From positions 15,543,881 through 15,607,880 of the forward strand of contig NC_092678.1 in the NCBI RefSeq assembly GCF_964355755.1: a stretch of 64,000 nucleotides of DNA, written 5' to 3'. The position numbers and the translations under genes are program-made. Each line of letters starts with the position of its first letter. Position 1 is the stretch's first letter. Positions 5,186 to 39,245 of this stretch are shown here, one piece after another. The DNA is from Antedon mediterranea. Its lineage: Eukaryota; Animalia; Echinodermata. The notes under the pieces were generated by a model. The model was not told the origin of the DNA, ran no database searches, and worked only from the letters and a program-made list of their open reading frames with translations.

Positions 5186-5221
<36 letters not shown>

Positions 5222-15531: not shown

Positions 15532-16378
15532 AAACTATAATTTATTACTTTAAATTTCCTTTTATATTCTTCTATACGTTTCAACGTCAATATAGACATT
15601 GACGTACTGACGTAGCCTTGTAAGTAGAAACACAAACTGAACTAGAATATCTTGTGAAAAAAGTCTGAATTGAGAATAAGAAAGTAGAATTATTTCTTAA
15701 TGTAACAAAAGCGATGCTGATCTATAAAACACAATCAGAAAACTAATTTCAACTATCAGTAAACTACAGAAATATTGGAGTAGTGGCCAATTCAATTATA
15801 TCGGTTTCATGATCAATGTGAAACTCAATGGCAGCGCAAACGCAAGCTGGTGGTGGTCCAGCATGAACGTCAGGCTAGTTATCGGGAGTTTCCACCGGAG
15901 GATAAATTACAATTTTTTTTTCAGTGTTCTCAATGAACATAGTATAATACAAATTTACGTCAGAGTAGGGCAATTGTATTACCAATATTCAACACCATGA
16001 CACAAAGATATTCCACAGTATTCAAATACAATTATCACATGTCGATACAGTACTGCTTACTTGGTTCACCCTTAGCCATCAGCGCAATCATGGTCAATAA
16101 TATGAGAGACAACTGCTCAACGTCTGCTCATTGCAGGCTGTAGAGAAGGGACAAAACTGAATAAATCAATGGGTACCGGTTAGATCAAGAAACAAATTTG
16201 CGCTGATTACTAGCTGTATTATTATGGGAGTTTGTTTCCATACGTCTAAGCAATGACCTGGTAATAATATATGCAGCAAAACTGAGAGCTTACTAATGGG
16301 CTATAAGAATGAACTATTATTATCAACAATGGCGTCGTCTGTCAAATCATGGATTGACTCTCATGTTGAATATCTTAA

Positions 16379-17770
16379 AGATGCATTTTCCCTTGAAACA
16401 CAAAAAAATGAAGGTCAAAATATTATAAGTTTAAATTGGCCATATCAAAGTAATATTAAAGTTATTCACTTTAAGTCGAAAATTCAAGCCAAAAGCAACA
16501 AGTTTACGTAATTAATAGGTAAATTAGTTTGTTTACATTTCGTCTGGAAAATCGTCGCGAGCGAAAGTAAACAAGGATTTCAAACCACGAGTACGCATTA
16601 TGCATTATGCTAATTACAATTGTTTACAACTCGTCACGGTTGGGAAGGTATTTTCACACAGATCGTGAGGAAGTTTTATGATTATGCATACAGAGTAGCC
16701 AAACAAGCGCGTTTCATTATGGGATATGTTTTGATCGAAAGCTTTTTCTGGAAGTCAAAGTTATTTTTTTAACAAAAAAACGTCTGTATTTCAGTTAAAT
16801 TATTTTTTTTGCGCGATAAATTTTTGGTGATAGCAAAGAATATATATCACAAGAATGAGTATTCCGTGATTTTTGCATGAGAAATTTGTAACAGAGAGCT
16901 CCAGAGAGTGATTCCCGCCCTCATAAGGGCGGATGTATACATACAAATAAGACTTGATTTAATAGATATTATACATGTCACATTAAATAGAATTATGATA
17001 ATAGTTTTGCAATTGTAAACTATTTTATAATACATATTTATTAACAAACTAGTGTACATTCACTTTTACAGACAATTATTTACTAACATGCTAAGTTAGT
17101 TCACAAAAAAGGCCTATTACAGAAACACCTAAAGTCAACGAATCGTTACTCAGCACGGCCTATTCTTTACCATTGCCCGTGTACTACTCTACGCCCGGTA
17201 AATTAAGTATTGTTTTTATGATATAAATTAGTATAAAATACATGTTATTAATAGGAAAAAATGTTAAATGTCATTAACATTTATTTGTTTTACCAGAAAC
17301 AAGTTAAATATAGGAATATTATTAAACTATCCTACGTGAAAACGCGTAAACACCAACACGCCCGGTCACGCTATTGTAGCGCCCGGTTGATAAAGCAAAC
17401 TGTTTATACGGCAGTTTTTACTAAATAAATTGCATAAAACGAACAATTAAATATCCAAATAGTATTTAACATGATGTTGGCATGTAGTTGACAACAGTTT
17501 TTATCATGAAAATACTACCGGTGGTCCAGCCTTTGATTAGTGAAACCGTCACAAAAAGTTGCATACATCCCAGATACATCCACACTTATGGCGGCGCCCT
17601 ACCACATGGACAATATTACTGTTACAGGGAAAATCGCGGATTACTCATTCTTGTGATATATATTCTTTGGTGATAGTTAATAACTATTATGATACTTCAA
17701 AATGACCCACCTTTTTTCGAAATCTGTTATTTTCTATTTTTTTGGAATTAGTCAAAGGGACAATACATCT
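16379..17770 (+). mobile_element. Non-autonomous Kolobok element (copy 1) with a nested P-like element
   Basis: TTAA-AGATGCATTTTCCCTT ... AAGGGACAATACATCT-TTAA; same family as 34451-34991 and 49727-52497. Confidence 0.8.
16834..17669. mobile_element. P-element-like non-autonomous transposon
   Basis: TIR CAAAGAATATATATCACAAGAATGAGTA / TACTCATTCTTGTGATATATATTCTTTG; 7-bp TSD GTGATAG (16827-16833, 17670-17676). Confidence 0.8.
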
Positions 17771-18315
17771 TTAACGAGAAAATTTTACTAGAATTTTAAG
17801 AATATGTTATTACCCCACATACTTTAATCGTATAGCTTTAATACCTTCTTAATGTTGATATAGCGTGGGTAGTTTTAAACAACAGTCTTTCTGACTATGT
17901 TATTGACAACATTGGAATTATACTTTTATATTTTATTGACCTTTCCCATTATGTTGCTAATTAACTCAGGAGAATGAATATGGTGGTTTTTTATTTCAAA
18001 GTAAAATTATACTCAATTAACTTTTCTAGTTCATTAATTAAATTAAAAGGCATGTGTGACCAACCCAATTATAATAAGGTACTATCAATACACTCATCTT
18101 GACCAACTTAATTCTCGATCCTTACATACAGTATACAGATCAGAATGTCTTAAAAACGTAGCATGGATAAGTAATTTCACTCTTTCGTGGTAATAGACAC
18201 TACACGCAATGTTCCCGGAACCACTCAATACTTTCGTAGGAAAAATCAGGTAATTACATAAAATGTCCCAGATATGTATTGTAGCCAACATTTTTACATT
18301 GTATCTCACGGAACG

Positions 18316-19966
18316 GTTCTAGGACACCTACCCCCTAGACAGTTACCCCCCGGATGTTTACCACCCGGACAACTACCCCCTTAGGACAACTACCCCCCGG
18401 ACAACTATCCCCCGGACAACTACCCCCTTAGGACAACTACCCCCTTAGGATAACAACCCCCCGGACAACTACCCCCCGGACAACCACCCCCTTAGGACAA
18501 CTACCCCTTAGGATAACTACCCCCCGGTCAACTACCCCCCGGTCAACTACCCCCCGGTCAACTACCCCCCCCCCCCCCCAATCCAAAAGTAGACAAATAT
18601 ATAGGACCGGTTTCTGTAAAAATGAAATCATCTGTTTTTAACGGGTGTTTCGAAACTAGAGACCCGAGACCAGAGACCTGACACGAGACCCAATACGAAA
18701 AGAGAGACCTATATTTGGGTCTCCATTTTCGTATATTAGGGTCTCCCTTTTTGTATAGTGGGTCTCCCTTTTCGTATATTTAGGTCTCCCATTTCGTATA
18801 TTTGGGTCTCCCTTTTCGTATATTTGGTCTCCCTTTTCGTATATTTAGGTCTCCCTTTTCGTATATTAGGTTCTCCCTTTTCGTATAGTGGGGTCTCCCT
18901 TTTCGTATAGTGGGGTCTCCCTTTTCGTACGTGGGTCTCCCTTTTTGTATATTTAGGTCTCCCTTTTCGTATTGGGTCTCGGGTCTCTGGTCTCTGGTCT
19001 CGGGTCTCCAGTTTCGAAACACCCGTTTTTAACCGATTATTCTGTTTAACAGCACGCTAGACCCTAGATGTGCTAGATTTAAAGTACCGTATTTATTGAA
19101 AAAACGGCCTGGGCTGTTTATTGTTTAGGTGGTTTTTAGGTGGACATTTATTGGAAAAAAGTTGTTTATTCAATGGGAGGGGGTATAATCTAATGGAAAT
19201 AGACGCCGATTATTCCATATGATGTTTCATGGGAGTGACATGGTCACCGTTTATTTGAGGGGAATTTATTTAAAGATCGACGTTTATTCGGTGAGTGAAC
19301 ATTGAGGTCAAATATCAAAAGTGATATTATTCTTCAAGTGTACAAAAATACATATATGACAAATTTGAGACAAAAATTAATTCTTTTAAGACCAGTGGTT
19401 ATCGAAGCATTGTCCTGACGCAAAAATTATTATTATTATTAGCGAACCCAGTCTTTACAGTAAATACATGGAGTACTATATAATACGTTCGACTATCCTA
19501 TGATCATGTGTGACAATCTTTAGTTTATACCACCAGGCTATATTTATGTTCAATCTTTTACTTTTGTTTACAATAATGAATAGCAATTCGTCAAAGTAAC
19601 GAATTAAAATATAGTTATTAATTAATAGTTGCAGAGTCAGGTTGTTGAATGGTCTGGGTGGTTAGGGTGTTCTAAAGGGATAGTTTTCTGGGTGGTAATT
19701 GTCCGGGGGGTAATTGTCCGGGGGGTACCGTAATTGTCCGAGGGGTAATTGTTCCTAGGGGGTAATTGTCCGGGGGGTAGTTGTCCAGGGGGTAGTTGTC
19801 CTAAGGGGGTTGTTGTCCTAAGGGGGTAGTTGTCCGGGGGGTATTTGTCCGGGGGGTAGTTGTCCTAAAGGGGTAGTTGTCCTAAGGGGGTAGTGGTCCA
19901 GGTGGTGGTTGTCCGGGGGGTAGTTGTCCGGGGGGTAAATGTCCAGGGGGTGAATATCCGGATACG
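18316..19966. mobile_element. MuDR/foldback-like element with GGACAACTACCCCCC tandem arrays in both arms
   Basis: Arrays at 18316-18580 and inverted at 19680-19966; 9-bp TSD CACGGAACG (18307-18315, 19967-19975). Confidence 0.8.
18643..19024. mobile_element. Nested MuDR-like MITE with a ~21-bp internal tandem array
   Basis: TIR GGGTGTTTCGAAACT.GAGACCCGAGACCAGAGACC; 9-bp TSD GTTTTTAAC (18634-18642, 19025-19033); (GGTCTCCCTTTTCGTATATT)n. Confidence 0.8.
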
Positions 19967-20581: not shown

Positions 20582-21439
20582 GTAAAACCCAATTGGATCG
20601 ACGAGTTGGATCGTCCAGTTGGCTTGTGGGTTAGGTTTTTAATAATTAGGACGAGTTTTATTATTTATGTTTTTCATTAAGACAAGTTCATAGTTGATAA
20701 ATCTAAGCCATCAGACAGATAGATGCACTATTAGACGACGATACATGACCAATGTGAGTACAGACATTATCCCAACATTCACTTCCAAAATCAAAATCAG
20801 TAGGTGAGAGGATTCATTCTCCGTATGGGTAATGGATTCTCACCACCAGAATCATTCATCAACTACAGTCATCCTCCAAACACAGGAACATAACACAAAA
20901 GTATGAGCAACATCAAATCAGTTCAAGACATGTACTTGTGCTGACCTCACGAGCTTTGCGAACCGTCAACCCCGCTATTCAGTAGATAAATCCAATCCCC
21001 GACAAAAAATACTGCAACAAAATAACTTGTTGACTTACTCTTTCATACAGCAAATTCAGCCATAAACAGGGTGAACTGAAATTAAGCATACTTAAATCCA
21101 GCTCCAAATAGTATTAATAAACATAACATAACTAGAAAACTATCTGCAAAACAGATCAAACGTAGCACCCTCTTACGAAGGTGTACATGTGTAAACAAGG
21201 TATCAAATAATCAACAGTGCCCTAATACGGGCATGGCTAATTCTATAGATACATCATACATAATAGAACAGCGCCCTCTACACGAAGACTGTGTTTATCG
21301 TATATACAATTCACTAGCAATTAATACCCACCCCAGGGCGGGTTTCAAAATTAGTTTAAAGGCTTCTCAGTATAACACCCAACGCCAGTATGTCCCTATA
21401 CTATGGCACGCCAGGACGGACATAACTATGACAAGTTGA

Positions 21440-21760
21440 CCTCGCTCGTGTTATGTAGACATCGCTCGTGTTGAGTTTAACACATCGCTCGTGTTATGGA
21501 GGCATCGCTCGTGTTGAGTTTACACATCGCTCGTGTTATGGAGACATCGCGCGAGTTGAGTGTATACACATCGCGCGTGTTGAGTTTATACACATCGCGC
21601 GTGTTGAGTTTATACACATCGCGCGTGTTGAGTTTATACACATCGCGCGTGTTGAGTTTATACACATCGCGCGTGTTGAGTGTATACACATCGCGCGTGT
21701 CGAGTTTATACACATCGCGCGTGTTGAGTTTATACACATCGCGCGTGTTGAGTTTTACAC
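21440..21760 (+). repeat. Left subterminal array of the IS3EU-like element (19-24-bp units)
   Basis: (ACACATCGCGCGTGTTGAGTTTAT)n and CATCGCTCGTGTTATG variants. Confidence 0.92.
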
Positions 21761-21848
21761 GATATAATCATGGCCGCCGGGGGTTGAGGGCGTTCTCAGC
21801 TGCGCAATCATCAGCAGGGAATTCCCATCAGCAGAGCTGAGAGGAGAA

Positions 21849-22027
21849 ATGGCGTCTACTGAAGGAATCTTAGATCCATTGGGACGAATTTATTAGATTA
21901 AATGATTCATTCGTTCATCGGACACAAATACTGTTGAAAGAATACTATTATGGGAGGAACAGTGTAGGACATTCATCATCTAGGCCTAGCCTACATAATT
22001 GTTGCAATAGTAGTAGTACAGTAGTAC

Positions 22028-22059
<32 letters not shown>

Positions 22060-24500
22060 CTAGGGCCTCTTAGGCCTAGGCTAGTAGTAGTACTAGTTAG
22101 TAGTAGGGGGAATCTGACCTAGCCTAGCTAGGCCTAGCCCTATGTATTATACTCTAGCCTAGGCTAGGTCTAGGCCTGGCAGACCTTTAAGTCTTATTAT
22201 ATGTCCAGGCCCAGCCAGCCTAGAAGGTCTAGGCCTAGGCTTAGTGTAAAATCAGGATAGGACAGGATAAAAATCTAGCCAAGCTAGGCCTGACCCAGTC
22301 TCATGACAGAAATTATGCATCTAGCTAGGACCAAGAGGAGGAGGCAGGGACGGCCTAATAATAGTAGACTAGGCTAGGCCTAGCCCACACCCAGCTAGGC
22401 CAACACTAGTCTAGGCCTAGAGTTACTTAGCTAGTACTACTAGTAGTAGAAGTATGGGCCCTAATAATGGAATACAGATCAACCCGTACACATACCAACT
22501 CGTATCCAAATGTTGGCTCACTCGTACCCAACATTTTTTGGCTTACCCCTACTACCATCATGTAGATAATACAATCATATAGGTCCAGAGCCAACGGACT
22601 AGCCTAGGCCTACTGCTATGCAAAATCTAGCTACAGGCCTACAGTACCTAGTCTACTTTCTACTCCTGATTATTGATAGTCTGATTTAATGGTACTGAGC
22701 TATTAATTATACTAAAAGCCTAATAGAGGGTACTGTAGTAAGGTACAGTGGTATGTCAAACTTTGGTACATACAGAGGCATAGGTAGCCTTGGTTGGTTG
22801 TCCTCGGTAGGCTTTTGTTTTTCTTTTGACAATCTAATAAGGGACTGGGGAGGGAGAAGGAATGAGTTAATCAGACTTAAATGTTTTAGATATAAACCGA
22901 GAGTAATATGCAAAGTATTTATAAATGACAATTCCACTACGATTCGACTGTAGTACAGCATTCATGTTGTACAGTAGTTCACATTATGAAACTAGAGTTC
23001 TTCATTTTGTATTTAATAGTTATATAATTTATGTTGATTTAATGAATTTAGACATTTTGGGTCAAATCATTACAGACACTTCAGCACCTGACTCATCTAG
23101 TGGCAGACATACTCAAAATACTGCTTGATATTTTGCGAGGTATTGGTCATCGTTTAGAAATAAAAGTACCATGCAAACCCACTTTGGTCAGGTCATACAG
23201 GGCGTCCCAGGTATTGTATGTGTTTAAATAAATGATCCTTTAAAAATCATGTAATAAAAAAGGTAATTTTTTTTATATATATTTAAAACATCAGTTGGTT
23301 CAATGTTTCCTGTCAAGGTTAGGCCATTGGAGAAGATTTTGAAAATAAATTGGCCCAGAGTATAAAAAAAACTGCTTGATACTCAATTGGATTTGTCTAT
23401 GAGCCTGTTGGTTCTGTCTATCTCAAAGTAATATATCCTCTAATAAAATAAGAATCAACCAAATTACACTATAGTTTTAATTAAATACAAAAATTATTAA
23501 TTTTTAAAAATATTTTTATTATGCTATAAGTTGATTTTCCCGATTACACTATAGTTTAAATTAAATACAAAAATGTTTAATTACTTATTTATACCCTTAT
23601 ATGGCTGGTATTGTTTTGATTTATTGTAACACACTGCCGTACATGATTTTGTACTAATGAATGAAAAATGAAAATTTTCATAATACTGTAGTTAATAATC
23701 ATGTAACCTTGCAAACTTGACTATTACATTTGTTTTTTTAGGTTGAAAAAATATTTGTTCCATATTTGATCCTGTTGAACGAGCTTTGCGATGAAGATCC
23801 ACAATTGTGAGAAGAACCTACAATGTAACTGTTCCAAATCAACTATGGTATGTATGCATCTCCATGGGTTTTACTATGATATTACTTAACTCAGTACTTG
23901 TATGCAAATGTAAGGCATTATTCAGGGCGTTTATATATGGTTTATATAAAACGATCTGTTTAATTAATGATATCTACAAACAAAACTGTAACTACCCATA
24001 TTAAGCTTGTTGAAACCTAATCAACTTTCATTAGTTTACTTAAATGTTAGATATTTCTAGATATTTTTAGATTTAAGACTTTTGTCTGCATAAATAAAAG
24101 CATTTATATAAAGTCATACAGACAGACATACATATATTTTATTTGACCTTTTGGTAATAAATAGACATTTTGTATGTTATGCGATTTTACCTTTTTTTTT
24201 TTTTGTGCAAAATAATTAGTACCTGTACAGTTACACATTTTTTACTAAAATGAATTTTGTTAATGATAAACTAACTGTGCGCAATGGTTTGAAAGCCAAT
24301 GCACCTTGGCAAAATGTAATTTATCTTTTCTGTTTTTTACAGGCACATAGATTCCAACCACAAACTTATCTCATGGAGGTTTGTCTTTCATGGATGTATT
24401 GATGGGGAAACAAGATGTGTAATTTATTTAAAAGTTGCATCAAACAACACGGCAGGACAAATTTTAAAGTATTTTGAAAAAGGTTGCACAGACTTTAGTA
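21849..24500 (+). pseudogene. Decayed inverted copy of transposase exons 1, 2, 4 and the start of exon 5
   Basis: Exon-1 relic ATGGCGTCTACTGAAGGAATC; exon-2 relic 23076-23210; exon 3 missing; exon-4 relic 23742-23848 with a deletion and TGA; exon-5 relic [51 protein letters not shown] ends ~24497. Confidence 0.88.
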
Positions 24501-26099
24501 CTTTTTGTATTTTTAAGAAATCTATTCTTCGTACTTTTAGATGTTGTATTTTTTTATTTTGAAATATATATAAATATACTGTATTTTAAATTTAAGAGGT
24601 TGTGTCAAAATGCTTATTAATATTATAATCTTATTTATAATACTAAATTTTGATGTTTTAATATATAAGTGTATAAACAATTTTTAAAACTGTATCCATA
24701 CTTTTATATATCTATGTATCTATGTCACTTTTTGTCTGTCTTGATGTATTTATGTAAAGCGCCTTTACATAAATTAAATAAAATAAAATATAAATAAAGT
24801 AAAGTATAAAAGTAGGCCCAACGTCAGCCATAGACTTGTTTACCTGTTTATTTCCGAGTTGTTAGAAATATTTTTTTATTTAAAAAAGGCGGAAATGTGG
24901 CATGACAAATTTCAGAAAAGTGGGCTAGGTACAAAATAATAGTATAACTAGGCCCAGATATTTTGATATATAATTTACAGTATTTTATAGTAATATGAAT
25001 AAGCTGTTGTTGAAAAATAAATATATATATTTAATAGCATGATTTCCAACTTTATTAGATATTGAATGTTACACTAATGGCCCAGTTGATTATTATATTC
25101 TTGTGAAATATGCACCAACATGCATTTAAGATATATTGCCCTCCTTAACATTTTTTAATTGTTTTCACATATGCCATTTTAATGTTATATATTATTCACT
25201 TTGACGAATAATTGGATCAAGAAGAAAAAAAATTTCCTTGAAAAAACTGTAACAAAATTGACCAAAACAACAAATATTAAGTGTATATTCATACTTGAAA
25301 ATTTATTGTAAGAATGGAACAAATGTATGAAAAAAAAAAGTATTTCTTGTAAAATAAAAGACAGAATATGTCATATAATTATAAATAAAAATATTTTAAT
25401 GATGTGGAATCATCAGTGACTAGGTCTCAATGAAATACAAATAAAATAAGCAAAAAGCTTAAAATTAAAATTAATTTATGTTCTAAAAAACTGTTTTTTT
25501 TCAGGTAGGCCTAGATAATTTTTTTTTCACTTCTTTTTTTCGTCTGTACCTTTTATATTTGAATAAACTTTGAAATGTAAGTTTTGTAATAATTTAATTC
25601 TCTTAATTCTTAATTGCGTTCAACAACAACAAATACATGAATTACAATTAAAAATTATTTAAATTTAAAGATAAGAGTATTCAGTAGTCATTCTTGTAGT
25701 ATTCAGTTGTCATTCTTGTAGTATTCGTCTTTTGCCGCATATTGAAAGAAATGTAACTACTGACAATTTGTTCTATTGCATTCATAAACATTTTGTATAA
25801 TATTGAAGTTTGTGGGGGAGGGGCATGTCACAATAGCTAATATATTGACAGTACAGAAGATACTGCTAGTGAAAAAGGTCAACATTTTTTAGGGGGAGGG
25901 GAATTGGTTAGGGGGTCCATGGCCCCAGCAGCATTGCGCCCGGTATTTGTTCAGAGTCTTGTGTTAATGATCTCTGATAAAAAAAAAATTGCAGCATTTT
26001 TTTTATCTGCCCGATACCCAACACCTATATCAGATGACACATTCCCTAACACAGGCAGACTAGCACTGGCAGTGATACAATTACAGGAGTATCCTAAAC

Positions 26100-29000
26100 A
26101 TGTCTCAGCAAAATGAATTAACCAGGTTATTCAGCATTTTAAATCGCCAAAGAGAGATAGAAGATATATTTGGCCAATCTTCAAGGTATCTATATTTGAA
26201 TATTTGTTTTCAACAATATATTTTATGAGCATTTGCCTAGGTCATGTTCATAGGCCTATGACTAGCCCATAGGCTATATATTCACCTCCCTGCCCTAACT
26301 AAGTTTAGCTAATTCCAGCATGGTCCTACTGCAAATTTGGGACTGTACAAACAATCCATAAAAATCCAAAACGGCCTGAAGAGACCAAAACGCCCCTGAA
26401 ATCTACAACAAAGACGAATGGGCATGTGAATTATAAAATCTCTCAACAAAAAGATTATATGGAATTATAATTTGTATTATTAGGATTTTCAAGAATCATG
26501 CTTATGAGCTATGTAGGCCTATGGTGCGCATCAAATGTCAAAAGTGGCATTTCTTTGGGTTAAATGGATTTGATTAATTTTTTTTTTTTTTGTGGATTAA
26601 TTTGGTTAATTGTGACATTTCATTTATTTATGTAAACATAACATAATTAAAAAATTTATTTTAAAATAATATTTATCTAATGATGAAATTCTTTAAAATG
26701 TCAATTGGTTTAGGCACCAAAAATCCCTGTGGTAAAATATAGTATGATTAAATGTGGTAAATTATTTGTGCAAAATAAGAATTTACAGTGGTTTTATACA
26801 GTGTTAAATAATAGTTATTCAAGAAGCATTTTAAATTTTGATGGTCTTGCATTTATTTATTCTTATACTTTTTCCACAGGCCAACTACTGCAACTGTGGC
26901 TTCTACTACTTCCAACCCTTCTTCTTCTGCCCCTTCTACTTCCAACTATTTTACATCTGCCCCTTCTACTTCAAACCCTTCTACATCCACTGTGACTGCA
27001 CCGGTTGTACCAAGATATCAATTTCAGGCAAACTTTAGACCTTCCAACACAAACAGAAGAAGAAAAAGAAATAGAAATGATGTGTAAGTGGTTTTTGAAC
27101 AATTTATTCAATGTTGATAATGTCAGAATTAATCGTACCTTTCTCATTTTTAAAGATGTACCTCCCAAACATTAACATTAAGTTAACCAAAAAAAAAGAA
27201 CATACCAAACAATGTTTTATAATGAATAAATTTACTTATAGTGGAACAAAATCCTTTTATTTATCATAAAGCAAGGGTAGTAGTGGACCATACTTCAGGG
27301 AAGTTGTCCTTGTTTCCGGGCCAGAAGTCAACACAGTGCCAAGACATGGTTCAAAACTGTTTCTCGCTCAGCATGGACATGTCAAAACAGGAGTGCGTTT
27401 TATGAAAGAGTGGGATGATCAACAGATTGTATCTAAACTCAAAGACCTTTTTCCAAGCCTTGGTGATGTTAAGTGAGCTACTTTACAAAATTTTAATTGA
27501 AAAAGTATTTACACTTATTGATTAGTTTATTGCATTAAAAATGGTTTATTTGTGTTTGGTAATTGTTTAATTGTTTCACTATTATTGATTCAGATTCGAA
27601 ATACTCTACAGCATAGGGCAGACTTTGGTAAAACCCCAACTTGAAAATGGACAGAAGATATCAGGATTCATTCTTTCCAAAATGATCAAGTACACTAAAC
27701 CTGTATATCTACGACCTGAGCGGGTACTAATTGAAGGGATGGAACAAGTGGTATGAATCTTAAAATATTGTCTTAAGATATCAGGCCTTAAGTTTTTTGT
27801 TTTTTTTTAATATGTTTTGGCAAAATAATGTTTTTATTTACAGATTGAAAGAGCAAAAAAGAGGTTGCCATCTCCACCGATGTTATCGGATGATGATATG
27901 GATTTCATGCCTTCAGAAAATATTTTTCCATCAACACGTATGTAAATCATAACAATTAACATAGAATTACAACTATTATGTATTATGTTTATCACATTTC
28001 CAATACTACGGACTAGAAAAATGTGGCATTGTCCACTTAATGAAAACAAAATTAGGATGGGGTGGCTTATTTTTATTTATTTTATTGGTGTTAAACATCA
28101 TTTTAAAAATTATGTAGTATTTATATAAAAATATTGTTTATTAAAGCATTAAAAAATCAGTCAGAATGTTGCTTTCTACTAAATTGATATATTAAACCTT
28201 TATGATCTTTTTATATTTTGTCACTATTTTAGTTGCTACTTCACTGTCGACTGTTACATCTACACCAGCCTCAACAGATTGCGCAGTTACATTATCATCA
28301 ACCGCACAATTGTTACCTACACTGCCATCTGTAACTACCATACCATCATCAACACCTTCTTCAAGTGCAGGAGTTCCATTTTGCTCTTCAGCTCCAACAA
28401 CTTTCAGAGTGTATGACAGGTTAGTATTGGATTTTAGATTTATGAATTGTATGTACCTGTTATTGTTCGTTGTTCAGATGAATGCCAGCACCATATGCAT
28501 ATAACCACAACCCTTGTTTTCATTCAATTCTTATTTTAGTTTATTTGTTGAAGACACCGACTTTATCCAGTGTGTAATTAGTGATGATGATGATGATGTA
28601 GAAGATGCTAATGTCTTGTAAGTATTTTTTTTAAACGTTTTTAAGATAGCTGTACAAACAAGATAAGAATTACAGTTGTTTATCTCATTACATTTAGGCA
28701 AGATGATACATTGCTGAGCGACATTCTGGTAGAATTGTCAGGGAAAATAGACTACAAACTTCCACGGAATCTGTTCAATATCTGGAGAGGAAATGTGTGG
28801 GAAGGAGCGAAAATTGGATTTAACCGAAAAAGGTTCAACCCTTGTGCCCAGTTAGATGTGGTGTTTGCAGACAGCACATTGAATGTCGAATTTAGTGCGG
28901 AAGGGGCTGTGGACCTTGGAGGTCCCACAAGAGAATTTTTGACGCTTTGTATGAAAAGCATGCAGGAAGGACGTTGTTTCATCGGAGATGAAAAACTTCT

Positions 29001-30675
29001 TACTAGAGATGCTGAAGGTGTGTTGCAATAATATACATCATATAGAATCCTCCTCTTCTATATCATATAGATGGAGTCAAAAACATACACTAATGCTATT
29101 AGAGAAAACAGCGTCATTGTTTTGTAAGATTTTTTGTGTCAATGAAACCGTTTTTACACTTGAATTCTAATAACAGCCACTGAATTTAATTGGTTTTTAC
29201 TGATATTTTTTTTTTCGCAGCCATAGCAGCACAAGATTATTTGTTATGTGGAAGAATAATCGCCACCTCACTGGTTCATGGTGGACCAGGTCCACATTTC
29301 ATAGCTCCGATTTTATTTGAAGCGATTGTCAATGGGCCAGAAAAGGTGCATGTACCTTTAGAAGCACTGCCACCAAGTGAAGTGAAGGAATCACTGCTTC
29401 AGGTACAAACTAACATCTGCCTCATTCAATATGGAAAATGTGTCAAAGGATTCTTTTTAGTGCAAAATGAAATGTATGAAAAGTTAATTGGCATTTTATC
29501 TTAGGTTTTTTTTAGATATCTTACCTTTTCCCAATCCATTCCACTTATTTTGTGTTTGTGTACAAGGGCTGCAGGTTGTTAAACATTGAATTTTGTCTTT
29601 GATTTAAAGCTAAAAAATCTAACAGTAGTGCAATTTATTGAAGCATTGGATATGCCAACGCACAGTGCTTTGGCTACTACCATCGACAATGCCGGTAGTA
29701 TGGTCAACGTAAAATCTGTCGAGGACATAGAAACTGTGGTACAGAGAACAGCACAATACTTTCTCTTTGGAAGGACAGCTGATTGCTTAGATCAGTAAGT
29801 ACTGCATTACAGTATTTGTTAACTGGACAAATTTAACCAGCCCCTCACAGTTACAGAAAGTACAACTAAATAAAACAAATACAAAACGATACCAAAGAAA
29901 ACAAGGCAATTTTTGTTTTAAATTAAGTTACTATTTTGCAGGTTCAAATCAGGTCTATCCACACTTGGTGTTTTAGAAGCTATGCGACAACACCCTACAG
30001 CCTTCAAACAAGCATTTTTAAGAGAAGAAGCAACAATTGATTTGAGGTTGATGAACAAACTGTTCAAGACAAAGATATCAGAAGATGATGACAAAAAAAG
30101 TACTGAAATGCGTGTCCTCAACCAGTGGAGGCAATTTCTCCAACAAATTGATGGTAATGAATGACAATTTTTAGCTAGATTACTATAGTACATAAACATT
30201 TAGCTCAGCATTAGACCAGACCAGATAATTTGTTTTATAACAGGAAGACAATAACTGTATATTCCCACACTTTTTCTAAAATTGTGTGCAACAATAAAAA
30301 TAGAGATGTGTACACACACATTTTGACAGCCTACTTTTCTAAGTTGAATACTTTCATATTATTTATTGTCATACCTGTAGTTACTATAGTTCTTGTTTAT
30401 GCTATTAACAAAACATTTCTAATATAGATGATGAATGCACAACATCATTCCAAGACATTTTGATGTTCGCAACAGGACTGCGGACCCTCCCTCCTATGGG
30501 ATTTCAACCTGGCAAGCCAGAAATTCATTTCTTACATGGAGATGCCAGCAAGTGGCCAAAGGCAAATACCTGTAGCTCTGTGCTACTGCTACCCGTAGTG
30601 CACAGCTCATTTGCACCATTCAAAGAGGCCATGTCTTTTGGCATTGGTAATGCCCAAGGCTTTGGTTTTGCCTAA
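26100..30675 (+). CDS. HECT-domain E3 ubiquitin ligase (G2E3-like HECT), 12 exons, ~717 aa, inside the transposon
   Basis: GT-AG exons 26100-26185, 26880-27083, 27272-27472, 27594-27750, 27844-27937, 28233-28419, 28540-28617, 28698-29017, 29221-29402, 29610-29794, 29942-30153, 30428-30675 join in frame (2154 nt); motifs EGAVDLGGPTREF, GRIIATSLVHGGPGP, QFKSGLSTLGV, LMFATG..PPMGF, PKANTC (catalytic Cys), terminal GFGFA*; first exon and start are least certain. Confidence 0.85.
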
Positions 30676-31223
30676 AGTTGGTTGGTTGGTTTTTTTTTCG
30701 TTTTGATTTCTGTTACAAAATATTTGATTTATGTACAATTAACCAGATATTATATTTCAAATTCATGCCTGTACCTCTGCTTTAAAACCTAGATTTGTGA
30801 TATTGTGTTTTTACTTTTTTTTTAATGAACAATCTTTCTCCTCTATGTCAAGGATGACTGATAGAAATCTTCAGATTGTACTTTATATACATTTATAAAA
30901 ATATTTTTCACAACTTTAGATTTATTTATATATATATGCATATATGCTAGTGTTGCCCGAAAGCTCTGCTAACTTTTCTAGCTGTTTTACTTTATCGTTT
31001 TGATTTAGCTTTTCGGTTTTTTTGTATCTCCTTTGAGATCAAGCCACCCATACCCCCACAGCATTGTCATTTTTTCAGTAATTTGCCTTTGGATTTATAT
31101 ACAGTACATATATAAATCAATGTGTTGCGTAGCACTGTGTAAATTATCGCAAATTAGCTATGCTCGACGCGATTATGAGATCATGTTCCGAATATGAGAA
31201 CTGTTTCTATAATTTACAGTATG

Positions 31224-31263
<40 letters not shown>

Positions 31264-32050
31264 CCAAAGATAAACACATCAGGCAAAGAACATTTATTAT
31301 AAACCGCCCGGTGATATACTGAAATTTAATTATTTAATTTGAAATGATAAAGATGAGGAAATCTATATAAATATAGCCATTCTTAGTAACATAAGTATAA
31401 CAAGGTTTAATTTATTAACACAACTCTAGTATGACAATATCAGTATGACAGCGAAAATCATGGTTTTACAGGCAGCATTGTTTAAATAAGAACTTTTTCC
31501 ATGACATCATGCAAAGGGGTGACACATATATTCAGACTTTACTGTGTATATACATTTGTAAAAATATGTTCTGCAACTTTTAGATAATATATAAATATAT
31601 AGCCATTTTAAGTAACAAAGTTTAGTTTTTTAATTATAAATGACTAGTTTTACAGGCAGCCTTGTTTAAATGCAGTAGAGTAGTGCAGCATAATAATAAT
31701 TCCAACCTTCAATTAGCAATTTGTCTATAATGTTCACATATCTTGATTTCTCTAATTAACAATTTAAACTATATACCCTCAATTATCAGTATAAAAACAA
31801 TAAACTAGATTTAAACGAACTTGTCATCATGGCAACAAAAAATACACTAAGTGTATTTAAAATATTTATCATACTGTACTGCAACTGTGTTATTGAAACT
31901 TGTTACACAAATATTGTTATATTGCATTTTCTGTAGATGGATGGTATTCAATTTACTATCAAAGATTAAAGGAAAGGTAATTTTTGCAGTTTGAGACATT
32001 TTGAAGTTTGCTGTGTATTTTATATTATCCATTACAACCACTCCATTAAA

Positions 32051-35000
32051 TTATTCATGTAATCTCAATGTCTCCCTTAATTGAACATAAAGGTCAATAC
32101 CATAGTTACCATCATCATACAATGCATTAAAGTTGTCAAGTTCCTGAATAACTTGCTCATTTGGTTGAAAGGTAATCTGAGGAACACAAACATTATTGTT
32201 AGTTTGAATTTCAGGTACAGGACCATCATAATCAATCCCAAAATTATCAACATCCTCATTAAACAATACATGATAATTATTTTGTAATGTACCTCCAAGC
32301 CACAATGCCAAAGGAGATTGACCATTCATTGTACGCAGTCCATGGTGATTCCACATGGAAATAAATTGATCTAAAGATTGCTGAATCCTGGGTTGGTAAA
32401 CACTATGGAGACAGAATAGATCAAGGTCATCTGTCGAACAAAGCAGGTTATTATATTCTAAAAAACAAAATATATCTTTGTATAACCAGGAAACAACTCT
32501 GTTTGTTTCAGCCCAAAGTCTTTCAATACGCTGATTATGGACGCTACGGCCAGCAATGAAACTACCTCTGTCTCCACCTCTATTATCTACCATAAATCTA
32601 GCTACATCAACATTTTCAGTTCCATGGTCTCCTCTCACTCGTGAAGGTATACCAAAGTCTGTGCAACCTTTTTCAAAATACTGTAATACTTGTGCTGCCG
32701 TGTTGTTTGATGCAACTTTTAAATAAATAACACATCTTGTTGCCCCATCAATACATCCATGAAAAACAAACCTCCATGAGATAAGTTTGTGGTTGGAATC
32801 TATGTGCCTGTAAAAAACCGAAAAGATAAATTACATTTTGCCAAGGTGCATTGGCTTTCAAACCATTGCGCACAGTTTATCATTAACAAAATTCATTTTA
32901 GTAAAAATTGTGTATACTGTACAGGTATACTATTTTTTTGGCCCAAAAAAAAGGTAAAATCGCATAACATACAAAATGTCTATTCATTAGCAAAAGGTCA
33001 AATAAAATGTATGTATGTCTGTCTGTCTGTATAACTTTATATAAATGCTTCTATTTTTATTTATGCAGACAAAAGTCTTAAATCTAAAAATATATAAATA
33101 AATGTGTGCCTCTAACATTTAAGTAAACTAATGAAAGTTGATTAGGTTTCAACAAGCCTAATATAGGTTGTTACAGTTTTGTTTGTAGATATTAATTAAA
33201 CAGATCGTTTTATATAAACCATATATAAACGCCCTGAATAATGCCTTACATTTGCATACAAGTACTGAGTTAAGTAATATCATAGTAAAACCCATGGAGA
33301 TGCATACATACCATAGTTGATTTGGAACAGTTACATTGTAGGTTCTTCTCACAATTGTGGATCTCCATCGCAAAGCTCGTCCAACAGGATCAATAATATT
33401 TAGACGTTCTCTAATACGCGCACGTGGAACAAATATTCTACGACCTAAAAAAACAATTTTAATATAGTCTAGTTTGCAAGGTTACATGATTATTAACTAC
33501 AGTATTATGAAAAAAATGAAAGCGCAAATAATTTCTAGTTTTGTAAGTAGAGTAGGACAATTACGTGTCATCACTATCAACCCTCGCATGCCAAAAGTAT
33601 CGACCTTTTACGAAAAGCAGTACAAAATCATGAACGGCAGTGTGTTATAATAAATCAAAACAAGACCAGTCATATAAGGGTATAAGGTATGAATTTGTCC
33701 TCTAGCTTAACTGAAAAACCGAGGAAATTCAGATTAGGCCCTCCAGGGACCCACCGCAATCAGCAGTGCAATATATAATATAATAATAATACAACTTCAT
33801 GAAGTACATTTTTATGACATAGTTATATAAAATGATACAAAAAAAAAATGAACAACCTCACCTCTAAGCCCACCTATTACATATGTTTCACCAGACTGTG
33901 GTGCCAGATATAAAATATCAACTATATTTTGGTCCAAATCCTCATCAGATATGGTAGTGTAAGGATCATCAGGAATTCCAAGATGACTCCTATGTCTTCG
34001 TAGTGTCTTTGCAGAAACATGAAGACATTTTGCAATGTCCTTCCATTGCATCCCAGCTTCCCGAAGTTGTTCGATTTGGGCTTTGGTTATGTCATACCTG
34101 CACGAATAAAAAAAAAAAAACTTTTATTACATTTGTGGCTACTATTAGGAAAATCAACTTATACTGTAACATAATAAAATTATTAAAAAAAATCAATAAT
34201 TTTTTTATTTAATTAAAACTATAGTGTAATTTGGTTGATTCTTATTTATTACAGGATACATTTCTTTGAGATAGACAGAACCAACAGGCTCATAGACAAA
34301 TCCAATTGAGTATCAAGCATTTTTTTAATAATCTGAGCCCATTTATATCAAAATCTTCGCCAATGGCCTAGTCTCGACAGGAAACATTGAGCCAACTGAT
34401 TAAATGAATATTTAAAAAAAATAAAGCAACCTTCATCCGACTTCTTTTAAAGATGTATTGTCCCTTGAAACACAAAAAATGAAAAAAAAATATTCTAAAT
34501 TGAAATTGGCCATATCAAAGTAATATTAAAGTTATTCACTTTAAGTCGAAAATTCGAGCCAAAAACAACAGTTTACGTAATTAACAGGTAAATTAATTAG
34601 ATTACATTTCGTCTGAGAAATCGTCGCAAGCGAAAGTAAACAAAGATTTCAAACCATGAGTATGCATTATGCATGATGCTAATTAGGATTGTACAACTCA
34701 TCACGGTTGAGAAGGTGTTTTCACACAGATCGCGAGGAAGTTTTATGATTATGCATAAAGAGTAGCCAAACAAGCGCATTGCATTATGGGATATGTTTTG
34801 ATTGGAAACTTTGACTGGAAGTCAAAGTTATTTTTTGAACAAAAAAACATCTGTATTTCGGTTAAATTTTTTTTTTTTGACTATTTTTTGGTGAAAGTTA
34901 ATAACTATTATAATACTTCAAAATGACCCACTTTTTTTCGAAATTAAAAAAAAAAAAACTTTGGGGAATTAGTCAAAGGGACAATACATCTTTAAGGAAA

Positions 35001-38000
35001 AAGAATGACCTTTTTAAAGGATCATTTATTTTTCCACATACATTGCAATACCTACCTGGGACGCCCTGTATGACCTGACCAAAGTGGGTTTGCATGGTAC
35101 TCCTCACTGCCTCTGATTTCTAAACGATGACCAATATCTCGCAAAATATCAAGCAGTATTTTGAGTATGTCCTCCACTAGATGAGTCAGGTGCTGAAGTG
35201 CCTGTAATGATTTGACAAAAAAAAAAAATGTCTACATTTATTAAACCAACATAAATTAAATAATTATTAAATACAAAATGAAGAACTCTAGTTTCATAAT
35301 GTGAACTACTGTACACAACATGAATGCTGTAGGCCTACTACAGTCGAATCGTAGTGGAATTGTCATTTATAAATATTTTACATACTCTTACTCTCAGTTT
35401 ATCGAATCTAAAACATTTAAGTCTGATTATCATCATTCCGTCTCTCTCCCCAGTTTTGGAGGGTCCCTTTTAAAATTGTCAAAAGAAAAACAAAAGCCAA
35501 GGCTATACCTATGCCTCTGTATCATGTAAGTTAGACCTACACTACAGTACTCTATGCCTTTAGTATAATAGCTCAGTACCATTAAATGAGATTATCAGGA
35601 GTAAAGTAGCCTAGACCTAGGCCTGTAGCTAGGCATCAGTAGGCTAGTCCGTTGGCTCTGGACCTATGACTACGGGTAAGCCAAAAAATGCTAGGTACGA
35701 GTGAGCCAAAATTTGAATACGAGTTGGTATATGTACTTGTATTCCAGTATATTAGTTAGGGCCCCTAGATAAAATAAGTAGCTCTAGGCCTAGGCTAGTA
35801 GTAGGCCTAGCTGGGTGTGGGGCTAGCTAGGCCTATACGTAACCTCTAGCCAGGGCCAGGCCTACCAGCCTAGTAAATAGGTCCTCCCTGCCTATTATTA
35901 GGTATCCCAATGTAAAAATTCAAATTAATGATGGTACTTTTTCTTTCAGTTAATCAGAAGGAACTTACTGAACATAAACTTTTGCAATTTAAATGATTGA
36001 AATCGGATTATCCATTCAAAAGTTATGGTCCATTAAAGTGCCCAAAAAACAGTGATTTTTGCTTGAAAAACGGCACTTTTTCTAATTATATTTGAACCCA
36101 TTTTTGAAGGGTTATAACTTTTATACTAATAATTTTAAAGTTCTTATTTTTTCCAAACCCATAGATACAACAGAGTTGTACAAGAATTTTTTTTTTTGGG
36201 TGTCCTCGACATTTTTTTTTTTAGATATCGCCCTCCAAAATTCGTCCGAGGGCTTTTTACGCGTGATTTTCCCAATGTCTCAAAAATGCCCAAAAAGTTC
36301 CTGTCTTTAAATGATTCATAACTTTTGAACCAATGTGTGAATTAACTTCTTTTTTTTTGCATTGCATAAAATTTAATATGTATTTTAGTAAGGTTATTTA
36401 TATTGACAGGTAGGTAATTCTGAAATACAACATAAAATATTGTTAAAAAATGTTAAAATGTGAAAAAAAAAAATAATGCGTTAAAAAACTGTGTGGGTAT
36501 TGTTTCTTTTCATTAAATATTATTTTTCGTAAGTATACATTTTTTTTTTAATTCTAGTATTTAAAGTTATATTTATAATCATATATTATTTTAATTGATT
36601 TTCGAACCGCCAAAAATAAGAATTAAGCCCGTGCTTATTATGTGTTCGATTCCATTTGGAGCGCCGGGCCGAACGTAGACTCGGCCGCGCCTACTACAAG
36701 TTAAGTTATATAGGCCCCTAAGACTAAGGTCTAAATAAAAGCCTGGCGCTAAATTCTGCCTAAGACTAAGAAATATCGGGAAGAAATTTTTTATTTAACA
36801 AAGTAATTACCTCAATGGTATAATTGTAACATGTTTAATTTTATTTCCCTTTCGATTATTCTAACCGAAAGTTGCACTTTGAATTGAAATATACGGAATA
36901 AAATTTAGGCCTAGAAACAGCGTAGACATACAACGGCAACACAGGCCAAAGCGCGTTTCGGCCGCCTACATAGAATGGCTTACGGCCGCTGCATAGCAAA
37001 ATCAAAGCTTCTTAAATTTCTTCGGTACATTTCTTCCTAACGTACTTGCTTTATATAGTAGATTTATAAATATTCCACTTATTAAATAATTTAATAAATC
37101 GGTAAAATTGACGTTTCGAAGCAAATATTCCATGAGAGGCGACATTTTTCGACATGCCTCGTGTGCGGCGAAGACTAGTTCAGAAAATGGAACAGTCCAC
37201 TGCAGGGGTTATCCAATCATTAATTAACGCGCTAATACATGCATACCATGCACATTGTCTGGGCGACGGTAATTTAGTAATAAGCGGAGAACTGAATCCC
37301 CCCCGTAAGGAAAATGGTAAACACTGATATTTTTGGTAGGGATTATTTTTTTCAGTGGTTGGTCTTGTTGGCCTCTTCGCACGAGGTCCACGCAAAGTCA
37401 AATAAAACGATGTGGTTTATCAAACAAAAATATAAATTAGCTTCAATTCAATACTAAATTAGCCAAATTTTGATAATGAGAAAGACTAAAAAATTCAATT
37501 TTTATCGTTAAAATTGACATTTGAGGCGGATGTACATAATAATAATAACCGATTTACATATCAAAATAAAGAGTATTTAAAGCCTGATAACATGCAACAA
37601 AAATTACTCCACCACCTATTATGGACCTCGTGCGATCGTGTTTTGAAAATGGGTAGGTGTTTTCCAAAGTTATTTTTAGCGCGCGGATTTCGGCTCGCCG
37701 GCTTTTGTACCTCATTTTTAACTCGAGTTTTCTATTAAAATATTTAATAAACATAGATTAAAAATATATGAAAATAATCCCTTAAACAAGATCTTTCCAG
37801 ACATATAATTTTTTTTCACATGTGTATATAAGAAATAGTATATTTTTAACTTCAAAGACACGTCACTTTTTGAAATTTCACGAACGTGTTAAAATCGCGG
37901 TAACGAAAATCCGCTTCATTGGGATACCTACTATTATAGGCCTAGGCTTATCCTGATTTTAACACCAGGCCTAGGCTGGCTGGGCCTGGGCATAATATAA

Positions 38001-38299
38001 ATAATGGGCTAATAATATAGACTTGGGTCTGCCAGGCCTAGACCTAGGCTATAGGTAGAGTATAATAGATAGCTTTAGTATATGCGTCGGATTCCCCCTT
38101 TATAGGCCTACTAGCTAGGGCTAGGCCTAGGTCTACCACCTACCTCGACACTGACTACCATTGCAACAATGTAGATGAATATCCTACAATGTTCTTCCCA
38201 TAACCTCTGTATTCTTTCAACATTGTTTGTGTCCGATGAATCATTTAAAAATTCACCCAATAGATCTATGATTCCTTCAGTGTATTCATTAAACGCCAT
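32051..38299 (-). CDS. DDE integrase-core transposase with N-terminal HTH, 5 exons, ~475 aa
   Basis: Exons 38299-38144, 35201-35056, 34097-33862, 33444-33312, 32807-32051 join in frame (1428 nt); [42 protein letters not shown] (D), [12 protein letters not shown] (D), [13 protein letters not shown] (E), WNHHGLRT. Confidence 0.9.
34451..34991 (+). mobile_element. Non-autonomous Kolobok element (copy 2, uninterrupted, 541 bp) in transposase intron 2
   Basis: TTAA-AGATGTATTGTCCCTT ... AAGGGACAATACATCT-TTAA; absent from the left-arm copy of this intron. Confidence 0.85.
35899..37930. mobile_element. Non-autonomous DNA transposon (hAT-like TAG..CTA ends) in transposase intron 1
   Basis: 14-bp TIR TAGGTATCCCAATG / CATTGGGATACCTA; flanking direct repeat CTATTAT (7 bp); absent from the left arm. 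Confidence 0.7.
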
Positions 38300-38394
38300 T
38301 TCTACAGTCTGATTTCTCTCACTTTCTTTGACAAGAGAGAGAATTGAAGAAAGGACGAGAACCGGAAATTCTAGCCACGCCTCATCTCTCGATA

Positions 38395-38760
38395 TGCGCG
38401 ATGTGGAAAAACTCAACACGCGCGATGCGTAAAAACTCGACACGCGCGATGTGCAAAAACTCAACACGCGCGACGTGTATAAACTCAACACGCGCGATGT
38501 GTATTCACTCAACACGCGCGACGTGTATAAACTCAACACGCGCGATGTCAACATAACACGCGCGATGTCAACATAACACGCGCGACGTGCAAACTCAACA
38601 CGCGCGATGTCAACATAACACGCGCGACGTGTAAACTCAACACGCGCGATGTCAACATAACACGAGCGATGTACAAACTCAACACGAGCGATGCCTCCAT
38701 AACACGAGCGATGTGTTAAACTCAACACGAGCGATGTCTACATAACACGAGCGAGGTCAA
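38395..38760 (-). repeat. Right subterminal array of the IS3EU-like element
   Basis: (AAACTCAACACGCGCGATGTG)n and ACATAACACGCGCGATGTC variants, inverse of 21440-21760. Confidence 0.92.
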
Positions 38761-39245
38761 CTTGACATAGTTATGTCCGTCCTGGCGTGCCATACTATAC
38801 TTATCACACCCCACACTGCTTTTTTGAAAACAAACGCTTCCCAGAACAAATTCAACTTCTAATGAGAAGAGTATACATAGCTAAGTATAGGCCTATAGGG
38901 TATAAGTACGTTGTAAACTTTGTAAATGAATAGGTGTCATATAGGCTGATAATTAAAATATCTAATTTTGATCTGCGGGACCCCAGCCTTCTTTCTCCTC
39001 TCACCATCCCAGCCACAATTAACAAACCTTAACAACTCTACCCCTGTACAGTTCGAATTTAGTAACTTTTCCTAGTAAAATTCCAATCATATATACTTCA
39101 TTACGCCAGTATTTCGGCTACGCTCTTCCTTCCTCCCAACACACCCCAGATAATGGGTGATGTGTTTATAAGACGGTTCCAGTACAAATTATGTTAGCCA
39201 TCCAGGGCCGTAGCCAGGATCTGTCAAGGGGGGTTCGGACACTAA

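What the first reader, a model, noticed from the sequence alone, without database searches (positions are those of the whole stretch)
21402..24500. Left arm of the element is a 3-kb inverted, decayed copy of the transposase promoter and 5' exons, aimed at the HECT gene
Seen: 21402-24500 is the reverse complement of 38794-32655, minus exon 3 and the two intronic insertions. It stops after the first catalytic Asp and has indels and a TGA. Identity is near-perfect in the outer ~120 bp and lower inside. Inference: the element replaced its true left end with a copy of the right end, so both ends carry the same inward promoter. The left one could drive the HECT gene 1.6 kb further on, with dead transposase exons as 5' UTR. 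Read-through across the element would give a kilobase-scale hairpin, a possible source of self-limiting small RNAs.
Basis: partly seen in the sequence, partly recalled or inferred. Interest (0 to 1): 0.7.

Follow-up and report, generated by a model that had tools for sequence, protein, structure and literature searches.

The report
Transposon with mirrored dead transposase arm
A 17.4-kb cut-and-paste jumping gene, likely from a feather star, carries a broken mirror-image copy of the front of its own transposase gene behind its left end; this pushes its intact ubiquitin-ligase gene 4.7 kb inward, and that gene is likely still read from the left end, while a self-silencing hairpin RNA remains untested.

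Summary
The inverted copy is real. It lies in an IS3EU/GingerRoot DNA transposon (21402-38794, TATGG…CCATA, 6-bp TSD CTATAC) with an intact 475-aa transposase and an intact, convergent 717-aa HECT gene.

Two corrections. (1) The left end was not simply replaced: its first 355 bp are an ordinary TIR, and the next 88 bp are unrelated to the right end (p≈0.5). The copy runs from the transposase start motif (21845) to mid-exon 5 (24496). (2) Divergence is highest in exon 1/intron 1 (9.3%) and lowest near the breakpoint (3.6%), with a 172-bp identical tract.

Contig depths in one sample suggest about three haploid copies share arm, junction and HECT gene. In four relatives with both ends, the partner gene starts beside the TIR. 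CpG richness only at the TIRs, and an intact HECT frame beside a frameshifted arm, favour HECT transcription from the left TIR; no RNA data tested this. Hairpin small RNAs are untested.

Closest known: Galileo TIR extension, Mu killer. Weak parallels: contig L080 and a tubeworm protein pair. This scan noted IS3EU+HECT on other DNA before, but no look-up returned this arm. New variant; modest interest.

The parts
21402..38794 (.). Whole IS3EU/GingerRoot-type DNA transposon, 17.4 kb, termini TATGG...CCATA
   Evidence: termini and TSD as in PMC10045372 and PMC12730594 passages
21396..21401 (+). Left target-site duplication CTATAC
   Evidence: chance about 3.4e-4
38795..38800 (+). Right target-site duplication CTATAC
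21402..21756 (+). Left TIR with 20/24-bp minisatellite; CpG-rich (o/e 1.68 with spacer); likely promoter region
   Evidence: promoter role inferred from relatives
21757..21844 (+). Left-specific 88-bp spacer, unrelated to the right spacer; holds a 5-codon uORF (MAAGG)
   Evidence: one exact contig at the lowest depth step
21845..24496 (+). Inverted, decayed copy of the transposase gene from its start motif to mid-exon 5: exon 1' from 21849, exon 2' 23076-23210, exon 3 deleted, exon 4' 23742-23847, exon 5' 24343-24496
23795..23966 (+). 172-bp tract identical to the right arm; likely gene-conversion tract
   Evidence: permutation p=0.0018 within the inner segment
24497..26099 (+). 1.6-kb AT-rich, CpG-poor gap (o/e 0.46) with A(A/T)TAAA cluster at 24773-24798 and short repeated pieces
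26100..30675 (+). Intact HECT E3 ligase gene, 12 exons, 717 aa, 11 GT-AG introns, catalytic Cys motif PKANTC; residues 229-717 equal RefSeq XP_071959901.1 (Antedon mediterranea)
32051..38299 (-). Intact transposase gene, 475 aa, exons 38299-38144, 35201-35056, 34097-33862, 33444-33312, 32807-32051; PF24764 rva_4
34447..34995 (.). TTAA-flanked TIR element inserted in transposase intron 2 of the right arm only (Kolobok-like; label recalled)
35899..37930 (.). 2.0-kb CpG-rich TIR element (TAGG...CCTA, 7-bp TSD CTATTAT) inserted in transposase intron 1 of the right arm only
38305..38394 (-). Right-specific spacer between TIR and transposase ATG
38395..38794 (-). Right TIR with minisatellite; CpG-rich (o/e 1.96 with spacer)

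Best explanation
This is an IS3EU/GingerRoot transposon in which a 2.65-kb inverted, non-coding copy of the transposase gene (start codon to mid-exon 5) sits behind what is likely the element's native left end, probably copied from the right arm during break repair, and the intact HECT gene 4.7 kb inward is likely still transcribed from the left TIR through the dead exons.

SHOWN: boundaries, TSD, two open gene models, extent and decay of the copy, unrelated spacers, divergence gradient.
INFERRED: (1) copying began at the AAATGGCG start motif found at both ends of relatives (template switch or NAHR, as proposed for Galileo); (2) the arms kept exchanging sequence, most recently near the breakpoint; (3) the structure was propagated, with about three haploid copies in one sample; (4) the left TIR drives HECT with a long uORF-containing leader. 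The arm is most likely a tolerated by-product, not a selected silencer.
For: TSD CTATAC on both sides and TATGG/CCATA termini. Homology begins at AGAAATGGCG, with ATG 448 bp from the left end. In relatives the partner ORF's ATG lies 74, 268, 489 and 455 bp from the end (L015, L038, L058, L065), so TIR + own spacer + ATG is the native design.

The left exons decay neutrally: 9 nonsynonymous to 2 synonymous codon changes in the ungapped parts of exons 2', 4', 5', plus indels. The HECT frame has no stop or frameshift in 2151 nt. At the rate seen in exons 2', 4', 5' (2-4 lesions in 392 nt), 11-22 would be expected. Its N-terminus resembles relatives'.

CpG o/e is 1.68 and 1.96 at the two ends, but 0.32 in the arm, 0.46 in the gap and 0.37 in HECT. 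This fits echinoderm methylation: low at promoters, high in gene bodies (PMC12550476 passages).

Contig depths step about 1:2:3 (X1 123/258/400; X2 21/48/72). The junction contig is at 413/65 and differs from the window at 3 or more sites; right-type exon 2 letters are at 124/28. There is a 172-bp identical tract (p=0.0018). Galileo extends TIRs by recruiting internal sequence (PMC3573991).
Against: No transcript evidence of any kind. A(A/T)TAAA hexamers at 24773-24793 follow the strong exon 5' acceptor and could end a left transcript, although such hexamers are common here: 20 in 21760-26100. Acceptors just upstream of the HECT ATG score 4.2 or less against 6.9-15.9 for the gene's own (PWM from only 15 introns). 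At least 13 ATGs lie in the spacer and exon copies. The RefSeq model lacks the first 228 HECT residues.

CpG loss may reflect repeat methylation. Copy-to-copy HECT changes are 5 nonsynonymous to 1 synonymous, so extant copies show no constraint. The intact-frame argument fails if the arm was taken from an already decayed copy.

The spacer/exon 1' region is at one-copy depth only, so other copies do not share the outermost part. The junction contig's span is inferred from table columns and has 30 letters left of 24497, one short of the tool's bridging rule. The tool warns that depth is no copy number, and X1/X2 may be the assembled sample.
Confidence: 0.55

Rival explanations
1. Composite element: the left arm is the transposase-side end of a second, older sister element lying in inverted orientation. 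A deletion fused it to a copy that lost its left end, and the two outer ends then moved as one unit. Later conversion homogenised the TIR tips and the inner part.
For: Outer part is more diverged (9.3%) and the spacer unrelated, as expected for a sister subfamily. Spacer/exon 1' is at one-copy depth only. About 25 contigs carry related TIRs in X1 and X2. Chimeric Galileo and heteromorphic Mu elements are described.
Against: No sister sequence with this spacer was seen in the window or by extra depth. Exon 1' is about 89% identical while the adjacent spacer shows no similarity, an abrupt edge at the start motif. The matching TSD excludes two independent head-to-head insertions.
Confidence: 0.22
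2. The arm is inert baggage: a left-TIR transcript, if any, ends at the poly(A)-like cluster near 24800, and HECT is silent or uses a new promoter in the 1.6-kb gap.
For: Hexamer cluster after the exon 5' acceptor and weak acceptors before the HECT ATG. Many uATGs. 5'-truncated RefSeq model. Nonsynonymous-rich differences between copies.
Against: No CpG-rich stretch in the gap: 13 CpG in 1602 bp. HECT frame intact beside a frameshifted arm. Relatives start the partner gene at the TIR.
Confidence: 0.25
3. One reading: the whole left end was overwritten by the right end, both ends carry the same promoter, and read-through yields a hairpin that makes self-limiting small RNAs.
For: 1385 of 3096 left-arm bases lie in perfect 21-mers shared with the right arm. 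Mu killer and Ac composite insertions silence through inverted duplications. Few copies, and apparently one intact right arm, in the sample.
Against: Spacers are unrelated. A left transcript is sense to the transposase mRNA. A hairpin needs more than 11 kb of read-through past HECT and A(A/T)TAAA sites at 31799-32360. Unlike Mu killer, the copies point inward around an 8-kb loop, and the transposase is intact.
Confidence: 0.1
4. Assembly artefact (mis-joined or duplicated haplotype).
For: Large inverted repeats can be mis-assembled (general knowledge). No listed contig spans the whole stretch.
Against: Arms differ by 4-9% with many indels. Left-specific letters are in contigs of two runs of one sample, including an exact match over 21726-22000. 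The TSD matches.
Confidence: 0.02

Closest known systems
[quoted passage not shown]
   Same: TA..TA (TAYGG..CCRTA) termini, 6-bp TSD, integrase-like DDE transposase without HHCC, convergent second gene. A complete relative (L058) has the same TIR-minisatellite design, TSD TTTCCC and a HECT gene.
   Different: Inverted homology reaches 3.1 kb and into coding exons, against 100-150 bp in GingerRoot and 55-380 bp in four relatives with both ends. The HECT start lies 4.7 kb from the end instead of under 0.5 kb. 'HECT' occurs 0 times in the three papers' main texts.
Galileo TIR extension in Drosophila mojavensis (PMC3573991; passages read)
   Same: Internal sequence next to one TIR reappears inverted next to the other; tandem repeats in TIRs; repair from the opposite end proposed.
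   Different: Galileo recruits non-coding F1/F2 sequence, TIRs reach about 1.26 kb, and the longest were in non-autonomous copies. Here four transposase exons are copied, an end-specific spacer interrupts the homology, and both genes are intact.
Mu killer and Ac composite insertions of maize (PMC3440606 abstract and introduction; bioRxiv 10.1101/2020.01.07.897926 abstract)
   Same: Two partial or full copies of the transposase 5' part in inverted orientation; MuDR also has two convergent genes with promoters in the TIRs.
   Different: Mu killer is internally deleted, has both TIRs from the mudrA end and is a demonstrated silencer. Here the arms are 8 kb apart around an intact second gene, the transposase is intact, and no dsRNA or siRNA is shown.

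Membership tests
IS3EU/GingerRoot | TA..TA (TAYGG..CCRTA) termini with TIRs | tested here: met
   TATGG at 21402, CCATA at 38794; 118/120 identical
IS3EU/GingerRoot | 6-bp target-site duplication | tested here: met
   CTATAC at 21396-21401 and 38795-38800
IS3EU/GingerRoot | Integrase-like DDE transposase, first D 100-300 residues from the N-terminus, no HHCC | tested here: met
   PF24764 E=3e-68 and HTH hits; first D near residue 227 of 475; aligns with 25 homologues; no HHCC seen by eye
IS3EU/GingerRoot | Phylogenetic placement with Repbase IS3EU references | not testable with these tools
   No Repbase sequences held; placement rests on termini, TSD and Pfam
Galileo-type TIR extension (works-like, not family membership) | Continuous extension of the TIR by adjacent internal sequence | tested here: not met
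   An 88-bp unrelated spacer separates TIR and copy; it works like TIR extension but is not continuous
Mu killer-type silencing locus | Inverted duplication of transposase 5' sequence | tested here: met
Mu killer-type silencing locus | Both ends derived from the transposase-side end | tested here: inconclusive
   TIRs are alike, as in any member; spacers are unrelated
Mu killer-type silencing locus | Hairpin transcript and siRNAs that silence the family | not testable with these tools
   No raw RNA or small-RNA data could be laid
HECT E3 ligase | HECT domain with C-terminal catalytic Cys | tested here: met
   PF00632 above cut-off; PKANTC motif in last exon (motif identity recalled)

The most novel reading that the evidence does not exclude
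IS3EU elements repeatedly copy the first exons of one gene to the opposite end (seen here, in contig L080, and mirrored in the Lamellibrachia HECT/transposase pair). In this lineage the kilobase arms would work as a built-in governor: they feed dsRNA against the transposase, or let a crossover flip the HECT plus transposase-3' core so that the catalytic exon joins dead 5' exons, while the dead exons tune HECT translation as a uORF leader.
Probability: 0.12. Interest if true: 0.65.

Novelty: new variant of a known kind. Interest (0 to 1): 0.35.

Why it matters
If the best reading holds, an apparently autonomous animal transposon tolerates, and has likely propagated with, a kilobase inverted copy of its own transposase exons. 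That is the kind of structure thought to start silencing in maize. It would be a natural test of whether such duplications trigger small RNAs in an invertebrate. It also shows that some host-annotated 'G2E3-like' genes are transposon cargo, and offers a route by which long-TIR or foldback derivatives arise from IS3EU. Without RNA evidence it remains a structural variant of a known superfamily.

Tried and rejected
No whole genome is held, so other copies and flanks could not be read.

Run search: no RNA holder listed among 6 runs; this is no evidence on expression. 4 of the 6 runs were laid (X1, X2, X5, X6). X6 ('RNA?') showed intron-containing pieces and no spliced joint among the rows displayed, so it was treated as DNA. 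X5 (organism B) covers a left-type intron 1 piece and HECT exons 2-6, but not the transposase exons or the junction; this cannot be placed on an arm and was not used. The empty site could not be confirmed: no second copy of the target repeat in the window, and 21214-21264 is uncovered in X1/X2.

Viral contigs: 11 pattern matches, 0 relatives. No protein carrying transposase exon 2 was found among 14 candidates (weak). No in-frame fusion of arm exons with HECT was found by inspection of frames. The L080 minus-strand ORF had no hit in Pfam, the loci, the Atlas or 151 HECT-like proteins, so it is not called a HECT partner. Of 120 transposases plus the window's model against 151 HECT-like proteins, only P0075/P0122 share an N-terminus; one other weak hit (E=7e-4) was set aside.

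Errors corrected: the exon 4 comparison was off by one base and was discarded (one search used instead). Early gene models had wrong boundaries, fixed. The donor PWM included one wrong donor. An early idea that 24500-24810 is a high-copy LINE tail was dropped, as only short pieces are repeated.

Paper searches listed nothing on inverted transposase copies in IS3EU. Only listings were seen for most hits, and supplements and Repbase entries were not seen. Look-ups of earlier findings by place, sequence and arm-related words returned nothing.
Full report
OBSERVATION. A self-comparison of the window shows the segment from 21397 to 24500 as the reverse complement of 38799 to 32650, in collinear blocks. 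The unit is bounded by TATGG at 21402 and CCATA at 38794, with CTATAC on both sides (chance about 3.4e-4). These are the marks of IS3EU/GingerRoot elements (passages of PMC10045372, PMC12730594 and PMC6839031). The minus strand encodes an open 475-aa transposase in five exons, with PF24764 at E=3e-68 and full-length agreement with 25 aligned homologues. The plus strand encodes an open 717-aa HECT protein in 12 exons with 11 GT-AG introns. Its residues 229-717 are identical to RefSeq XP_071959901.1, named as from the crinoid Antedon mediterranea, so the window likely comes from that species.

ANATOMY OF THE LEFT ARM. It has three parts. (1) 21402-21756 is a TIR with a 20/24-bp minisatellite, 118/120 identical at the tip and about 90% in the array. 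(2) 21757-21844 is a spacer no more like the right spacer than shuffles are (p=0.50 and 0.48). (3) 21845-24496 is the transposase copy, from AGAAATGGCG to mid-exon 5, past the first catalytic Asp and before the second. Exon 3 is deleted. Exon 1' has several indels, exon 2' an 11-nt deletion, exon 4' deletions and TGG>TGA at 23791. Codon changes in ungapped parts are 9 nonsynonymous to 2 synonymous, so the copy is dead as coding sequence. The two 'intronic insertions' are later TIR elements in the right arm with their own duplications. An X6 contig with right-type letters lacks the smaller one.

DIVERGENCE. Substitutions are 70/752 in exon 1/intron 1 and 27/742 from exon 4 inward (Fisher p=8e-6; rank correlation over 12 segments -0.68, p=0.015). 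A 172-bp identical tract at 23795-23966 exceeds permutation (p=0.0018); a second segment tested showed no such tract (p=0.32). A single untouched duplication would not give this pattern. Later exchange between the arms, stepwise growth, or two donors would.

RELATIVES. Of 80 fetched loci (best of 487), 11 have a HECT hit by tblastn, 10 of them convergent and downstream; L015/16/17 and L021/22 are near-duplicates. L058 adds a complete element with TSD and a HECT gene above the Pfam cut-off. In the four loci showing both ends (L015, L038, L058, L065) inverted homology is about 55, 170, 380 and 360 bp. The partner ORF starts 74-489 bp from the end, in three cases at AAAATGGC; L015 and L038 end at contig ends. 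TIR + end-specific spacer + ATG is thus the native design of both ends. The window's left end has that geometry (ATG at position 448), except that the ATG belongs to the transposase copy. HECT's first coding exon, which resembles relatives' N-termini, lies 4.7 kb in. Only 32 of the 80 loci are long enough to be informative at all.

PARALLELS. Contig L080 carries a 350-bp, 88%-identical inverted copy of transposase 5' intron and exon sequence that breaks off inside a coding exon; the ORF it points at could not be identified. The closest HECT relative, P0122, and a transposase of the same tubeworm, P0075, share 43 of their first 49 residues. This is the only such pair among 120 transposases plus the window's model versus 151 HECT-like proteins; both are gene models on different contigs. 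Both parallels are leads only.

COPIES. No genome is held; 4 of 6 listed runs were laid as contigs. In X1 and X2 (one sample, possibly the assembled one) depths step about 1:2:3: 123/21 for 21726-22000 (exact match), 258/48 for 25902-26753, about 400/72 for the HECT body. Unrelated long contigs lie near 270/45. Right-type exon 2 letters are at 124/28. A contig inferred to span about 24467-24665 is at 413/65 and differs from the window at three or more sites. Left-specific sequence at 22554-22577 is at 261/36 with two differences. I read this as about three haploid copies sharing the inner arm, junction and HECT gene, one intact right arm, and a private outermost left part. Limits: the tool states that depth is no copy number, a filter drops records, and the junction contig has 30 letters left of 24497, one short of the bridging rule. 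Whether the copies are alleles or separate insertions is unknown. About 25 contigs carry related TIRs, with 9 different flanks displayed in X2.

EXPRESSION. Nothing direct. For left-TIR transcription of HECT: CpG o/e is 1.68 and 1.96 at the ends against 0.32 (arm), 0.46 (gap) and 0.37 (HECT), matching low promoter and high gene-body methylation in a sea star (PMC12550476 passages), though repeats are methylated too. The HECT frame has no disabling lesion where 11-22 are expected at the arm's rate. Acceptors of exons 2', 4', 5' and donors of 2' and 4' keep AG/GT. Against: a hexamer cluster at 24773-24793, weak acceptors before the HECT ATG, at least 13 upstream ATGs, 5:1 nonsynonymous copy differences, and a RefSeq model lacking 228 N-terminal residues.

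HAIRPIN. 1385 of 3096 arm bases lie in perfect shared 21-mers, so dsRNA is possible in principle. But a left transcript is sense to the transposase mRNA, and pairing needs over 11 kb of read-through past A(A/T)TAAA sites at 31799-32360. A further inferred consequence is that a crossover between the arms would invert the core and join the catalytic exon to dead 5' exons; no read showed this.

COMPARISON. The element is an IS3EU/GingerRoot member by termini, TSD and transposase. The arm works like Galileo TIR extension (PMC3573991 passages), but copies coding exons in an element with both genes intact and is interrupted by an unrelated spacer. It resembles Mu killer in layout (PMC3440606 abstract and introduction; Ac composite insertions, bioRxiv 10.1101/2020.01.07.897926 abstract; heteromorphic Mu, PMC10401008 abstract), but the defining silencing feature could not be tested. 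Ten paper searches listed no report of this arrangement in IS3EU; supplements and Repbase were not seen. Earlier notes of this scan report IS3EU+HECT on other DNA (unchecked AI notes), so the gene pair is not new to the scan.

VERDICT. Observation largely right, with two corrections; interpretation partly supported. A new structural variant of a known superfamily; interest 0.35, up to about 0.65 if RNA data show a regulatory role.

Noticed in passing
window 3439-15531 (-): Likely DIRS/Ngaro-type tyrosine-recombinase retrotransposon (label recalled): 354-bp direct repeats at 98% (3439-3792, 15178-15531), ORF 13951-15150 with a weak HeH hit, RT 9818-10774, integrase-family hit 5540-6106, interrupted by an endonuclease+RT LINE (about 10827-13673).
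   Followed up: partly
window 6531-9258: 1.2-kb inverted repeat pair (89%) nested in the element above; foldback-like.
   Followed up: no
window 18320-19961: Element with inverted minisatellite arrays at both ends.
   Followed up: no
window 34447-34995, 16375-17781, 49723-52501: Several copies of a TTAA-flanked TIR family (Kolobok-like; label recalled), some interrupted by insertions.
   Followed up: partly
window 21316-21401: The transposon sits in a high-copy repeat whose consensus continues up to the target duplication (loose ends).
   Followed up: partly
window 25490-25512: Acceptor immediately followed by a donor (TTTTTTTTCAG|GTAGGC), like a recursive splice site (motif recalled), in the gap before HECT.
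   Followed up: no
window 54659-55813 (+): Galactose-3-O-sulfotransferase ORF, 384 aa, PF06990 E=2e-51; likely a host gene.
   Followed up: no
L080:89-417 and 3283-2932: Inverted 88% copy of transposase 5' intron/exon sequence beside an IS3EU-type transposase; possible independent parallel.
   Followed up: partly
P0122 and P0075 (Lamellibrachia satsuma), residues 1-49: A HECT-like protein and a transposase share their first 47-49 residues (43/49): a HECT-type first exon in front of a transposase.
   Followed up: partly
L058:4778-13563 and L065:8316-15868: Complete IS3EU elements with 6-bp TSDs (TTTCCC, CGGATC) and minisatellite TIRs; L058 carries a HECT gene.
   Followed up: yes
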